Source: Minisyncoccota bacterium (lineage in GTDB: Bacteria; Patescibacteriota; Minisyncoccia; Phycocordibacterales; UBA9973). Taken from it: 50,365 bases of DNA. Positions 6,189-49,301 of the stretch are shown here, piece after piece; position 1 is the first letter of the stretch, and each line of letters begins with the position of its first letter. Where the stretch lies: the NCBI GenBank assembly GCA_018060905.1, contig JAGOVD010000001.1:1-50365 (forward strand), given 5' to 3'. The position numbers were made by a program, and so were the translations under genes. The notes beneath the pieces were generated by a model. It was not told the DNA's origin and did not search any database. It saw nothing but the letters and a program-made list of their open reading frames with translations.

Positions 6189-6488
6189 AAATATAAAAAC
6201 TAGCTTATAAAGGCTAGACGGGGTATCTGTAGATGCACAGAACCCCGCGCCAGCTCGGACTTGCGTCCACATACCAGTTTCCCGATATGACCCAACGAAG
6301 AGTAAGCTGAACGCGGGGTTCAGTATCTTCGTTGGGATTTGCGACCATATCCTTTATTTCCAAAGGGGTTAGGTCGACTAATATTTAGTTGTAGCGAAAT
6401 AGTACCATTTTGACCGATACTATTCTAGGACATTGTATCGCAGTATCACTGGATCACAGAGGAAGTTACCAACAGCTTATTTTTGAAT

Positions 6489-15561: not shown

Positions 15562-15576
15562 CCCGTTTAAAAATGA

Positions 15577-15602
15577 GCCCGTTCACACGGGCAATTTTTA
15601 TT
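15577..15602 (+). terminator. intrinsic terminator after tRNA-Val
   Basis: GCCCGT-TCAC-ACGGGC followed by AATTTTTATT. Confidence 0.65.
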
Positions 15603-15745
15603 GGGTGCACGGTAAGCAGGCAACCTGCGTTGCCTGCGTGAGGGAGCGAACGCCGGAGTCATGTTTCTTCAGCAGAAGAAACAGACGAGGCGGTGCCCAG
15701 CCCGAACTGCGCGACTGGCGCAGTGAGAGGCGAGGGAGATCCCTA
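15603..15745 (+). ncRNA. candidate structured RNA, family unassigned (GC-rich multi-hairpin element 1)
   Basis: Sharp local GC rise. Perfect hairpins at 15616-15637 (9 bp), 15663-15682 (8 bp, nested in CGCC/GGCG) and 15706-15724 (7 bp). It starts with the exact complement of the tRNA-Val 3' end. Strand is inferred only from the upstream terminator context. Confidence 0.4.
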
Positions 15746-47960: not shown

Positions 47961-48365
47961 ATGGCAACTACTACAGACAAAAAGAAATACATCGAAACTA
48001 TCGGCCGACGCAAGACCGCTACTGCTCGCGTCCGTATTACTCCAGCAGCAAAGGCAAGCTATGTGATCAACGACCTCGCGCTTGAAACATACTTCCCAAC
48101 AGCAGAACTCCAAAAGATCGTCACCGATCCATTCAAGGTAGCTGACAAGGCATATGCAGTCACCGTCCTCGTCAAAGGCTCTGGTATCCACTCACAGGCC
48201 GAAGCAGTACGACACGGTATTTCTCGCGGACTCGTCAAAGAAGATGAATCTGACAAGACTAAGCTCAAATCAGAAGGATTCCTCAAGCGTGACCCACGAT
48301 CCAAGGAACGTCGCAAATTCGGTCTCAAAAAGGCTCGAAAAGCACCGCAATGGTCCAAACGTTAG
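47961..48365 (+). CDS. rpsI: 30S ribosomal protein S9
   Basis: GRRKTATARVRI...GGG-like core and the C-terminal RDPRSKERRKFGLKKARKAPQWSKR. Confidence 0.95.
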   Translation: MATTTDKKKYIETIGRRKTATARVRITPAAKASYVINDLALETYFPTAELQKIVTDPFKVADKAYAVTVLVKGSGIHSQAEAVRHGISRGLVKEDESDKTKLKSEGFLKRDPRSKERRKFGLKKARKAPQWSKR

Positions 48366-48369
48366 TATA

Positions 48370-48403
48370 AAAAATATCTCCAAGAAATTGGGGATATTTT
48401 TTT
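48370..48403 (+). terminator. intrinsic terminator of the rplM-rpsI operon
   Basis: ATATCTCC-AAGAAATT-GGGGATAT (one G-U pair) followed by TTTTTTT. Confidence 0.7.
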
Positions 48404-48647
48404 GGACCATTGCGGTGGGAGAAGGGGGTCGGGGAAACTCCGGTTTCCCCGTGGAGGAAGGCAGGCGAAGCCGTTGGAAAACCGTGGGTTTCCAAAGAGC
48501 CGGAGGCGACCTCATTGGAGTAAACGATAACTGCTTATCGTTTACTCCGGTGCCCGAAGGGCAGCAGCCGATGTCGTCAGACAGGCCGCAGGTGGACAAA
48601 GCGATAAGGAAAAGAGAAATCCCCCGAAAGGGGTTTTCTTATTTTTA
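48404..48647 (+). ncRNA. candidate structured RNA, family unassigned (GC-rich multi-hairpin element 2)
   Basis: Begins with the exact complement of 48343-48356. Perfect hairpins at 48430-48451 (9 bp), 48474-48495 (7 bp) and 48517-48548 (14 bp). Ends in CCCC-CGAAA-GGGG plus TTTTCTTATTTTT. Very GC-rich relative to its flanks. Confidence 0.45.
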
Positions 48648-48755
48648 AAATATGATATAGTTTGAATCCGCATAAGGGAGTAGGTTTTACCGAACAACGA
48701 GGCGTGCGAGTACGCCTACAATTTCATATCGAAAAGAGACCCTTAGACATTTCCA

Positions 48756-48781
48756 AGCCTGATCACAAACAGGCTTTTTTT
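48756..48781 (+). terminator. intrinsic terminator closing a ~130-nt non-coding unit
   Basis: AGCCTG-ATCACAAA-CAGGCT followed by TTTTTTT. There is no ORF between 48648 and this point. Confidence 0.6.
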
Positions 48782-48840
48782 ATTGCAACGATCGATTTGA
48801 CTTGTGTTCAAAAAGGAGTAGTCTGATGAAAAACTAACGT

Positions 48841-49242
48841 ATGAAAAATAAAAAATATGTTCTCCATTTTAAGCTGGCATTCCCGTCGAAAGGTATTACC
48901 TCAAAATTCAACGGTATAACTCCCAACTTTGATTTCATCACTGAACATGAATCAGTCGGGAGCGTCACCAACAATGACTACCTTCTCCACAAGAAAAAGC
49001 TCGTCATTACTTCAACCAAGGATTTTTCTCAACTTGATACCCTCGACACTTCTTTTTCCCAAGCAATCTGGAGTAGTACCGTCGATTTTCTAAAAGGTGC
49101 GTTTGCTCCGGACTATAGCAAAAAATTGCACTTCGCCGGATATTTAAGTGTACGAGAATCACAAGTAAAAGATTTGCCTCGGATCAAATACGAAGTGTAT
49201 TATGGGTCACAGTTGGTGTGCTACATAGTAGATGAAAAGTAA
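48841..49242 (+). CDS. hypothetical protein (133 aa)
   Basis: ORF preceded by TTGACT-16-TAGTCT and followed by a hairpin plus T-run. No motif recognised. Confidence 0.45.
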   Translation: MKNKKYVLHFKLAFPSKGITSKFNGITPNFDFITEHESVGSVTNNDYLLHKKKLVITSTKDFSQLDTLDTSFSQAIWSSTVDFLKGAFAPDYSKKLHFAGYLSVRESQVKDLPRIKYEVYYGSQLVCYIVDEK

Positions 49243-49301
49243 TATTCCAATCCACGAATCCCTGAAAAGGGGTTCTTTTCTTATCTCTAATTTTCAGTAT
49301 A

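What the first reader, a model, noticed from the sequence alone, without database searches (positions are those of the whole stretch)
48343..48647. Element 2: terminator-clamped about 240-nt GC-rich RNA downstream of rplM-rpsI
A 14-bp perfect helix can form between the last codons of rpsI (48343-48356) and 48404-48417, enclosing the operon terminator. Downstream lie hairpins CGGGGAAAC-TCCG-GTTTCCCCG, TTGGAAA-N8-TTTCCAA and a 14-bp GGAGTAAACGATAA-CTGC-TTATCGTTTACTCC, and the unit has its own terminator (48619-48647). The unit is bounded by two terminators and has no credible ORF. The 164-aa and 109-aa ORFs in the track are overlapping mirror frames of GC-rich sequence. A stable RNA co-transcribed with, or read through from, a ribosomal protein operon would be interesting.
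Basis: partly seen in the sequence, partly recalled or inferred. Interest (0 to 1): 0.62.

Follow-up and report, generated by a model that had tools for sequence, protein, structure and literature searches.

The report
Gene-less insertion element behind rpsI
The "structured RNA" behind the ribosomal protein gene rpsI is a copy, stacked on the relic of an older one, of a tiny gene-less insertion element common in candidate-phyla-radiation bacteria. The element lands in the ends of essential genes, brings its own replacement gene end, and belongs to no described family that I could find.

Summary
But this is not a single-copy housekeeping RNA.

- **A repeat family.** Window 48419-48499 is an ~85-nt three-hairpin core. 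It occurs in 110 of 301 genomes of the order (up to 14 copies each), in 27 of 301 across the phylum, and in 105 metagenome contigs.
- **A shared layout.** About 110 copies read: gene end, spacer or terminator, exact antisense of that gene end, core, second copy of the gene end. Targets are tRNA and tmRNA 3' ends, rpsI (14 copies), rpmG, and some gene 5' ends.
- **Three rpsI ends in the window.** The working end plus terminator T1 travels with the element. It resembles a relative whose RpsI is only 72% identical. A third, frameshifted end plus terminator T2 is probably the native one.
- **No enzyme on board.** No recombinase gene travels with the element. IS110 and reverse transcriptase are mostly absent. 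Each genome has one Xer-type recombinase and usually one HUH-type protein.

My best mechanism is integration as folded single-stranded DNA by a host enzyme. This step is inferred, not shown.

The parts
48336..48365 (+). rpsI 3' end, copy 1. This is the working end, with Ser codon TCC and stop TAG. Target segment X is 48343-48359. It appears to be carried by the element.
   Evidence: Upstream rpsI is about 93% identical to the closest relative G014 and about 70% to G019. The last 33 nt reverse that pattern: 30/33 identical to G019 and 26/33 to G014.
48366..48403 (+). Terminator hairpin T1 (stem about 48369-48383 with 48388-48402, followed by a T-run). It forms the loop of the long sense/antisense hairpin.
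   Evidence: The stem is shared with the G019 copy apart from one compensatory change.
48401..48417 (+). Antisense segment ('guide 1'), the exact reverse complement of 48343-48359.
   Evidence: 17 of 17 Watson-Crick pairs. An equivalent segment precedes the core in most of the ~110 copies examined.
48419..48499 (+). Conserved core. P1 is 48431-48438 with 48443-48450. The purine-rich joiner GUGGAGGAAGGCAG is 48451-48464. P2 is the GGCGAAGCC mini-hairpin at 48464-48472. P3 is 48474-48480 with 48489-48495, with loop AACCGUGGG.
   Evidence: Covariance model R1 scores 93 bits, E = 1.6e-21. Across 41 copies, 98.2% of cells are paired and 9 of 15 pairs show compensatory changes; 0 of 500 shuffles reach this.
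48500..48505 (+). Tail of element 2a (CCGGAG), shared by other rpsI-type copies.
   Evidence: Tails of L002, L058, L066, L070 and a contig in run X5.
48506..48530 (+). rpsI 3' end, copy 2 (GCGACCTCATTGGAGTAAACGATAA, Ser codon AGT, stop TAA), displaced by element 2a.
   Evidence: Scores 15 against 33 rpsI ends. Random 24-mers from the window average 4.5 +/- 1.5 with a maximum of 12, and 0 of 2000 reach 15.
48531..48548 (+). Loop CTGC followed by antisense segment 2 (48535-48548), the exact reverse complement of 48517-48530.
   Evidence: The layout matches copy 1 / T1 / guide 1. In strain variant X8, the changes A48524G and C48547T both give G.T wobbles on the + strand.
48549..48583 (+). Relic of an older element (2b). 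It contains a GCCC-GAA-GGGC hairpin and the string GAAGGGCAGCAGCCG, which recalls GGAAGGCAGGCGAAGCCG of the core.
   Evidence: Its position lies between an antisense segment and a further rpsI end. Model R1 gives no hit here, so this assignment is an inference.
48584..48607 (+). rpsI 3' end, copy 3 (GGCCGCAGGTGGACAAAGCGATAA), frameshifted. Probably the original native end.
   Evidence: Scores 15 against the rpsI-end set. The best match is GCCCCACAGTGGTCAAAGCGATAA from a same-genus genome. 0 of 2000 controls reach this score.
48616..48647 (+). Terminator T2, probably the original rpsI terminator. It is followed by a promoter-like TATGATATAGT for the next small unit.
   Evidence: Empty sites in relatives read rpsI stop, terminator, next promoter.

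Best explanation
Window 48336-48647 is a stack of two insertions of a gene-less, non-autonomous, site-specific insertion element. 2a is canonical and 2b is a relic.

**What the element is.** It consists of four parts:
1. A replacement copy of the target gene's end.
2. A short spacer, often a terminator.
3. An exact antisense of that gene end, so that parts 1-3 form one long hairpin.
4. A conserved ~85-nt three-hairpin core and a short tail.

**How it inserts.** Integration is a single crossover between the element's gene-end copy and the chromosomal gene end.
- The gene keeps working with the element-borne end.
- The native end is pushed downstream and decays.
- A second insertion into the new end pushed the first element to the right, giving three rpsI ends.

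**Proposed mechanism (inferred).**
- The element moves as a folded single strand, most likely DNA.
- The sense/antisense hairpin presents a duplex copy of the target.
- The core is the handle recognised by an enzyme encoded elsewhere in the genome. Candidates are the single Xer-type recombinase and the ~220-aa HUH (Y1) protein.

**My odds.**
- Copy of this insertion-element family with an element-borne gene end: about 0.9.
- Folded single strand as the active form: about 0.6.
- DNA rather than RNA, acted on by a host enzyme: about 0.4.

The confidence given for this entry (0.55) is for the statement as a whole.
For: **Shown: repeat family.**
- BLAST finds the core in 19 of 61 relatives, often several times per genome.
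- Model R1 finds it in 110 of 301 genomes of the order (79 of 191 genera, up to 14 copies each).
- It is in 27 of 301 genomes across the phylum.
- An exact pattern finds it in 105 metagenome contigs.

**Shown: shared layout and targets.**
- About 110 copies share the layout.
- 38 of 74 metagenome copies lie 6-110 nt behind a same-strand tRNA or tmRNA.
- 14 copies lie behind rpsI.
- Others sit at rpmG 3' ends and at 5' ends of glycosyltransferase and HMA-domain genes.

**Shown: empty sites.** Most same-genus relatives read rpsI, terminator, grpE promoter.

**Shown: the working end is element-borne.**
- The last 33 nt of rpsI plus T1 match G019 (RpsI 72% identical) rather than G014 (96% identical).
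- The two rpsI ends around a copy use different serine codon families (TCN versus AGY) in the window, L058, L066 and L070. So the direct repeat is not a target-site duplication.

**Shown: three rpsI ends.** 0 of 2000 controls score as high.

**Shown: the core folds as a single strand.**
- There is compensatory covariation, with 10 G.U cells against few A.C cells.
- P2 keeps tandem G.A pairs in 43 of 120 copies.
- A 2-bp mini-hairpin with a GNA loop is kept by covariation in 28 tails (52 of 56 pairs Watson-Crick, 6 stem types).

**Pointing to DNA.** GCGNAGC and GCGNNAGC are the extraordinarily stable DNA mini-hairpins of single-stranded replication origins. Their RNA versions are much weaker (PMC13037366).

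**Enzymes.**
- No recurrent recombinase gene lies next to about 114 copies.
- There is one tyrosine recombinase per genome in 44 of 45 genomes.
- IS110 occurs in 1-2 of 25 and reverse transcriptase in 6 of 25 element-rich genomes.
- A Y1 HUH-like protein occurs in 21 of 25 element-rich and 11 of 20 element-free genomes.
Against: - No free, circular or single-stranded form has been seen. No empty-site variant of this population appears in four DNA metagenomes.
- No enzyme is tied to the element. Xer is universal and normally sequence-specific for dif, whereas the targets here are diverse.
- The HUH protein correlates only weakly with the element. It is missing from 4 element-rich genomes, and its Pfam score in G000 is below the cut-off.
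- Mismatches between the antisense segment and the left gene end show no strand bias (12 G.T against 9 A.C).
- Element orientation follows the target gene, not the local majority gene direction, in 1 of 3 informative loci.
- How both the sense copy and the antisense copy are rewritten when the element takes a new target is unexplained. L075 shares only CACCGCAATG with the rpsI target, yet its antisense segment matches the new site over 15 nt.
- Cores of related copies occur in metatranscriptome contigs, so an RNA form is not excluded.
- Spread of already-inserted copies by ordinary homologous recombination could also explain the G000/G019 similarity.
Confidence: 0.55

Rival explanations
1. RNA-guided recombination. 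The transcript (antisense segment, core, second gene-end copy) acts like a bridge or seek RNA. Its 5' segment pairs with the target, and the core recruits a recombinase encoded elsewhere.
For: - The antisense segment is 9-21 nt and target-specific in nearly every copy.
- The core covaries like a structured RNA, with G.U pairs on the + strand.
- G.U wobbles appear in some guide-target pairings, for example L069.
- Cores are present in metatranscriptome contigs.
- In tRNA-type copies, the antisense segment plus the downstream copy would form a tRNA-like acceptor/T minihelix that RNase P and 3'-end enzymes could trim. This last point is my inference.
Against: - The IS110 recombinase is absent from 23-24 of 25 element-rich genomes.
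- No partner gene lies nearby.
- There is no room for a promoter between T1 and the antisense segment in the window, L007 or L008. RNA could arise only by terminator read-through.
- The GNA triloop mini-hairpins with 2-bp stems are stable in DNA, not RNA.
- In copies at gene 5' ends, the element is antisense to the target gene.
Confidence: 0.2
2. No dedicated mechanism. The block spreads between related genomes only by DNA uptake and ordinary homologous recombination through the flanking conserved gene sequence. The core is a selfish or mildly useful passenger, for example a priming or uptake signal, or a 3'-end stabiliser.
For: - The G000/G019 breakpoint lies just after a highly conserved 30-nt stretch of rpsI that could serve as a crossover site.
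- No element-specific enzyme was found.
- Mini-hairpin DNA motifs are known primase signals in single-stranded origins.
Against: - This cannot explain first arrival at many unrelated targets with the same precise layout: more than 13 tRNA species, tmRNA, rpsI, rpmG, and glycosyltransferase and HMA-domain gene 5' ends.
- It cannot explain the matching antisense segment at each target.
- It cannot explain stacks of copies at one site (window; L052, L012).
Confidence: 0.15
3. One reading: a stable regulatory or housekeeping RNA of the host, made from or read through from the rplM-rpsI operon, and conserved for a cellular function.
For: - The fold is strong (z = -7.6).
- It is fixed in this population across wastewater, freshwater and groundwater samples.
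- The core sequence is highly conserved across families.
Against: - It is absent behind rpsI in most same-genus genomes.
- It is multi-copy and patchy: 37% of genomes in the order and 9% in the phylum.
- It is always bracketed by duplicated gene ends.
- It is sometimes antisense to the neighbouring gene.
- No Rfam family matches.
Confidence: 0.06

Closest known systems
IMEX elements such as CTX-phi (integrative mobile elements exploiting Xer)
   Same: - They encode no recombinase of their own.
- The active form is a folded single strand whose hairpin mimics the duplex target.
- The integrated copy keeps an inverted repeat next to one junction.
- Each host genome here has a single Xer-type recombinase.
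   Different: - IMEX elements target dif only. This element has dozens of different targets, each matched by its own hairpin.
- This element is only 150-250 nt, carries no genes, and supplies a replacement gene end.
- Use of Xer is untested.
tRNA- and tmRNA-targeting integrative islands and prophages (P4-type integrases) and their integrase-less derivatives (CIMEs)
   Same: - They insert in the 3' end of tRNA and tmRNA genes.
- They restore the gene with an element-borne end.
- They leave the native end as a direct repeat downstream.
   Different: - There is no integrase in or near the element, and no extra tyrosine recombinase in genomes holding up to 14 copies.
- This element has an antisense copy of the target and a conserved folded core.
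- It also targets protein-gene ends.
IS110/IS1111 bridge RNA (seekRNA) systems
   Same: A structured non-coding part of the element carries sequence complementary to the target, and so programmes where the element goes.
   Different: - The IS110 recombinase is absent.
- The guide here is one long 9-21-nt antisense segment, not short bipartite loops.
- A gene end is duplicated.
- No Rfam or sequence similarity was found.
Integron attC sites, and REP/REPIN elements with their RAYT (Y1 HUH) transposase
   Same: - They are small, gene-less hairpin elements that work as folded single-stranded DNA with bulges or extrahelical bases.
- They are acted on in trans by a single-copy enzyme.
- A Y1 HUH-like gene is common in these genomes.
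   Different: - There is no attI platform or IntI.
- REPINs neither carry a target antisense nor replace gene ends.
- The association with the HUH protein is weak: 84% of element-rich against 55% of element-free genomes.
Group I and group II intron guide sequences (IGS, EBS/IBS)
   Same: A segment at the element's 5' side base-pairs with the flanking host sequence.
   Different: - There is no intron ribozyme core (no Rfam hit).
- The gene is not interrupted. It ends before the element.
- Reverse transcriptase is absent from 19 of 25 element-rich genomes.

Membership tests
Uncatalogued gene-end insertion element family (model R1 built here) | Conserved three-hairpin core with the joiner GUGGAGGAAGGCAG and the P3 loop AACCGUGGG | tested here: met
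   Window 48419-48499 scores 93 bits, E = 1.6e-21, over the full model.
Uncatalogued gene-end insertion element family (model R1 built here) | An antisense copy of the upstream gene end lies directly 5' of the core | tested here: met
   48401-48417 pairs with 48343-48359 in 17 of 17 positions.
Uncatalogued gene-end insertion element family (model R1 built here) | A second, direct copy of the gene end lies 3' of the core | tested here: met
   Copy 2 (48506-48530) and copy 3 (48584-48607) each score 15. 0 of 2000 random 24-mers reach this.
Housekeeping RNAs in Rfam (SRP, 6S, RNase P, tmRNA) and all other Rfam 15 families | A match to the family's covariance model | tested here: not met
   There is no hit in 48250-48900 at the gathering threshold. 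At E <= 10 there are only chance matches, such as microRNA and leader models.
IS110/IS1111 bridge-RNA elements | A DEDD/IS110 recombinase encoded by the element or in the genome | tested here: not met
   PF01548 exceeds its cut-off in 1 of 25 element-rich genomes and is absent from G000.
Integrase-bearing tRNA-targeting islands | A tyrosine or serine integrase gene inside the element | tested here: not met
   The element is 150-250 nt with no ORF. Genomes hold one PF00589 gene whether they carry 0 or 14 copies. No recombinase recurs in the flanks of 114 copies.
Integrase-bearing tRNA-targeting islands | An element-borne replacement of the gene's 3' end, with the native end left as a direct repeat | tested here: met
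IMEX (Xer-exploiting elements) | Integration at the chromosomal dif site | tested here: not met
   The targets are tRNA, tmRNA, rpsI, rpmG and other gene ends.
IMEX (Xer-exploiting elements) | A folded single-stranded DNA hairpin as the recombination substrate | not testable with these tools
   Support is indirect only: sense/antisense hairpins, DNA-type GNA mini-hairpins kept by covariation, and G.T wobbles on one strand.
MITEs (non-autonomous cut-and-paste transposons) | Terminal inverted repeats and a target-site duplication of fixed length, identical at insertion | tested here: not met
   The direct repeats range from 14 to more than 57 nt. The two copies can be different alleles, with TCN versus AGY serine codons.
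Retro-mobile elements (group II introns, retrons, DGRs) | A reverse transcriptase in the genome | tested here: not met
   PF00078 is absent from 19 of 25 element-rich genomes, including G000.
REPIN/RAYT systems | A single-copy Y1 HUH transposase that co-occurs with the repeats | tested here: inconclusive
   PF01797-like ORFs of about 230 aa occur in 21 of 25 element-rich and 11 of 20 element-free genomes. The G000 protein scores 21.6 bits, below the cut-off of 23.

The most novel reading that the evidence does not exclude
A previously undescribed class of minimal mobile DNA. It is a gene-less element of about 150 nt whose target is written in a sense/antisense hairpin that can be rewritten. 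It homes into the ends of essential genes (tRNA, tmRNA, rpsI, rpmG) while repairing them. It is moved by a housekeeping enzyme, or by its own folded core. In effect, this would be a natural, programmable, nucleic-acid-specified integration system that carries no dedicated protein gene.
Probability: 0.3. Interest if true: 0.92.

Novelty: new variant of a known kind. Interest (0 to 1): 0.76.

Why it matters
- **A new small mobile element.** If the reading holds, the smallest bacterial genomes (0.5-1.2 Mb) carry up to 14 copies of a mobile element with no gene of its own. It chooses its site through a target-matched hairpin and never breaks the essential gene it enters.
- **A testable mechanism.** The key substrates can be synthesised: a 150-nt strand, a target duplex, and one or two candidate host proteins. 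This makes a programmable integration mechanism directly testable.
- **Annotation.** The family explains many 'structured intergenic RNAs', duplicated tRNA tails and apparent extra terminators in candidate-phyla-radiation genomes. It is missing from Rfam.
- **History at a locus.** Stacked copies record the order of past insertions.

Tried and rejected
1. **SRP RNA.** GGUGCCCGAAGGGCAGCAGCC at 48549-48569 recalls the SRP domain IV motif. However, the 5' half of the symmetric loop is missing and Rfam gives no hit. Rejected.
2. **RNase P.** GGAGGAAGG recalls the P4 strand. There is no Rfam hit and the stretch is far too short. Rejected.
3. **Coding potential.** The ORFs are out-of-frame or mirror frames, and homologues differ by indels that are not multiples of three. 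Rejected.
4. **IS110 bridge RNA.** The recombinase is absent. Rejected.
5. **Retro-mobility.** Reverse transcriptase is mostly absent. Rejected.
6. **A dedicated integrase.** Each genome has only the single universal Xer-type gene. Rejected.
7. **A phage or viral vehicle.** There is no match in 50,697 phage records or in IMG/VR by exact pattern.
8. **Empty-site or excision variants.** None appears in four DNA metagenomes that hold this population.
9. **Strand bias relative to local gene direction, as a proxy for replication.** The result was mixed: 2 loci for, 1 against. Uninformative.
10. **Wobble asymmetry in the antisense/left-copy pairing.** There is none under unbiased scoring (12 G.T against 9 A.C). 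My first count was biased by the scoring scheme and is discarded.
11. **Model R1 on the 2b stretch and on Element 1 (window 15610-15658).** Neither is significant. Their kinship with the canonical core rests on layout only.
12. **Literature.** Two full-text searches found no description of this family.
Full report
**1.
- rpsI ends at 48365 with TAG.
- Its last codons (48343-48356, extendable to 48359) are the exact reverse complement of 48404-48417 (48401-48417). The two segments enclose terminator hairpin T1.
- As RNA, 48335-48650 folds to -137.7 kcal/mol. Shuffles give -95.0 +/- 5.7 (z = -7.6).
- Both strands of 48400-48650 fold better than shuffles (z = -3.9 and -4.2).
- No Rfam 15 family matches at the gathering threshold anywhere near the stretch. 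At E <= 10 only chance hits appear.

**2. It is a repeat, not a single-copy RNA gene.**
- BLAST of 48400-48650 against 61 related genomes hits 19 of them. The hits cover only query positions ~22-100 and often occur several times per genome. Two more copies lie in the window's own assembly.
- I aligned 15 copies (A1) and built covariance model R1.
- R1 finds the core as follows:
  - in 110 of 301 genomes of the order (79 of 191 genera, up to 14 copies in genomes of 0.6-1.2 Mb);
  - in 27 of 301 genomes sampled across the phylum;
  - in 105 metagenome contigs, by an exact pattern.
- The core is absent from phage collections.
- Across 41 copies the two modelled helices are 98.2% paired. Nine of 15 pairs show compensatory changes, and 0 of 500 shuffles reach this. 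Slid registers collapse.
- The wobble cells are G.U on the + strand (10). Non-standard cells are few and mostly come from one poor row.

**3. The common layout.** In about 40 genome copies and 74 metagenome copies, the order of parts is as follows:
1. The end of a gene.
2. A spacer, usually a terminator.
3. An antisense copy of that gene end (9-21 nt).
4. The core.
5. A short tail.
6. A direct repeat of the gene end (14 to more than 57 nt).

The targets are these:
- 3' ends of at least 13 tRNA species and of tmRNA. 38 of 74 metagenome copies lie 6-110 nt behind a same-strand tRNA or tmRNA.
- rpsI, with 14 copies.
- rpmG (L074).
- 5' ends of a glycosyltransferase gene (L061, L065, L068, L069) and of an HMA-domain gene (L075), where the element lies antisense to the gene.

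**4. Re-reading the window: three rpsI ends.**
- Copy 1 (48336-48365) is the working end.
- Copy 2 is GCGACCTCATTGGAGTAAACGATAA (48506-48530). The 3' arm (48535-48548) is therefore a second antisense segment.
- Copy 3 is GGCCGCAGGTGGACAAAGCGATAA (48584-48607). It is frameshifted and is followed by terminator T2.
- Copies 2 and 3 each score 15 against 33 rpsI ends. Random 24-mers from the window average 4.5 +/- 1.5 with a maximum of 12 (0 of 2000 reach 15).
- The stretch is therefore a canonical element 2a (T1, guide 1, core, tail; 48366-48505) stacked on the relic of an older element 2b (48531-48583).
- The core of 2b is no longer recognisable, so that assignment rests on layout alone.
- A contig from a relative in run X5 shows the same core and tail followed directly by an rpsI end, with none of the 2b material.
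- L052 shows the same kind of stack: a canonical copy next to the gene and a degenerate one further out.

**5. The working gene end belongs to the element.**
- In most same-genus genomes the spacer is simply rpsI stop, terminator, grpE promoter.
- Upstream in rpsI, the window is about 93% identical to its closest relative G014 (RpsI 96% identical). It is about 70% identical to G019 (RpsI 72% identical).
- Over the last 33 nt of rpsI this reverses: 30/33 identical to G019 and 26/33 to G014. G019 also carries the element, and its T1 stem, antisense segment and core are about 90% identical to the window's.
- In the window, L058, L066 and L070, the two rpsI ends flanking a copy use different serine codon families (TCN against AGY), while both still read W-S-K-R-stop.
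- That pattern fits two alleles joined by a crossover. It does not fit a target-site duplication.
- Each antisense segment is perfectly complementary to the gene end on its left (17/17 and 14/14) and only partly to the one on its right.
- So sense copy, spacer and antisense form one element-borne hairpin.

**6. Clues to the active form.**
- P2 is variable in length. In 43 of 120 copies it reads N-GAG...CGA-N', which gives tandem G.A pairs.
- Its tip is usually C-GNA-G or C-GNNA-G (GAA, GGA, GCA, GTA, GATA).
- In tRNA-type copies the tail is a T-loop copy interrupted by a mini-hairpin NN-GNA-N'N'. Its 2-bp stem is kept by covariation: 52 of 56 pairs are Watson-Crick across six stem types.
- GCGNAGC and GCGNNAGC are the extraordinarily stable DNA mini-hairpins known from single-stranded phage and plasmid origins. 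The RNA versions are much weaker (PMC13037366).
- T1's T-run abuts the antisense segment in the window, L007 and L008, so there is no room for a promoter.
- These points favour a folded DNA strand. They do not prove it.
- Against this, cores of related copies occur in contigs of a wastewater metatranscriptome.
- Also against it, mismatches in the antisense/left-copy pairing show no strand bias.

**7. Who moves it?**
- No recombinase or transposase recurs in the flanks of about 114 copies.
- Genomes with 0 or 14 copies alike have one Xer-type tyrosine recombinase (44 of 45).
- IS110 is essentially absent.
- Reverse transcriptase is absent from 19 of 25 element-rich genomes, including this one.
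- A ~230-aa protein with a Y1 HUH (IS200-like) domain is found in 21 of 25 element-rich and 11 of 20 element-free genomes.
- The G000 version of that protein (C4:12449-13141) has an HFH motif but scores below the Pfam cut-off.
- The enzyme therefore remains unidentified.

**8. Mechanism, and what is shown versus inferred.**
- Shown: family membership, layout, target range, absence from relatives' sites, the element-borne gene end, stacking, covariation of the core, and the absence of an on-board enzyme.
- Inferred, step 1: a single crossover occurs between the element's gene-end copy and the chromosomal end.
- Inferred, step 2: the sense/antisense hairpin presents the site as a duplex on a folded single strand, as in CTX-phi or integron attC.
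- Inferred, step 3: the core is the enzyme handle.
- Inferred, step 4: the strand is DNA.
- Unexplained: how both hairpin arms are rewritten at a change of target. L075 shares only CACCGCAATG with the rpsI target, yet its antisense segment matches its new site over 15 nt.

**9. Comparison and novelty.**
- The element behaves like a tRNA-targeting island in that it replaces the gene end and leaves a direct repeat.
- It resembles an IMEX or attC element in having no recombinase of its own and a hairpin substrate.
- It fails the defining tests of each family: no integrase, not at dif, no IS110, no reverse transcriptase, and no fixed target duplication.
- It is not in Rfam and was not found in two literature searches.
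- Earlier notes of this scan on other windows describe the same family. I treated them as leads and re-derived the claims used here.

**10. Verdict.** The 'stable operon RNA' reading is only partly supported. The stretch is a stacked pair of copies of an undescribed, widespread, gene-less insertion element that targets gene ends. Its mechanism is open but testable.

Noticed in passing
window 48648-48781: The next terminator-bounded unit has a clear homologue between rpsI and grpE in same-genus genome G004 (locus L048). There it also follows a TAGGTATAGT-like -10 box and contains AACGAGGCG...CGCCU. A similar string lies near a copy in G050 (L020). It looks like a conserved small RNA of unknown kind. 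It has no Rfam hit.
   Followed up: partly
window 48841-49300: The 133-aa ORF lies between that small unit and grpE, whereas several relatives go straight from the rpsI terminator to the grpE promoter. Its terminator plus promoter (49256-49300, GGGGTTCTTTTCTTATCTCTAATTTTCAGTATAATG) resembles T2 plus the following promoter (48630-48660). This suggests a duplication created by insertion of the ORF.
   Followed up: no
window 15562-15740: Element 1 behind a tRNA has the same layout: terminator, GGTGCACGGTA as antisense of the tRNA end, a structured stretch, then a partial repeat GAGATCCCTAC. Its core is different (GTGAGGGAGCGAACGCC...) and model R1 does not recognise it (E = 4.7).
   Followed up: partly
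G000:C4:12449-13141 (own assembly, outside the window): This is a 215-aa protein with an HFH motif and a weak IS200-like (Y1 HUH) domain. Similar ~230-aa ORFs, mostly one or two per genome, occur in 32 of the 45 genomes of the order that I tested. It may be a domesticated single-strand DNA enzyme and a candidate partner of the element.
   Followed up: partly
locus L022 (G014), directly after the rpsI terminator: The closest relative lacks the core, but its terminator is followed by TTTGACCCAGTG, a partial inverted copy of its own rpsI end. About 300 nt of different, apparently non-coding sequence follows. This may be a scar of a lost element plus another unknown RNA.
   Followed up: no
window 48524 and 48547 (run X8 strain variant): The two substitutions inside the 14-bp hairpin in a sludge-metagenome strain both convert Watson-Crick pairs to G.T wobbles on the + strand. 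Neither produces an A.C mismatch.
   Followed up: no
loci L065, L069, L061, L068 and L075: Some copies sit at the 5' end of a gene on the opposite strand (glycosyltransferase, HMA-domain protein). They duplicate the start codon and the first ~19 codons. The gene must then be expressed through or from the element.
   Followed up: partly
window 6256-6375 (- strand): A full-length LOOT RNA (Rfam RF03000, 82.7 bits) is present in the window.
   Followed up: no
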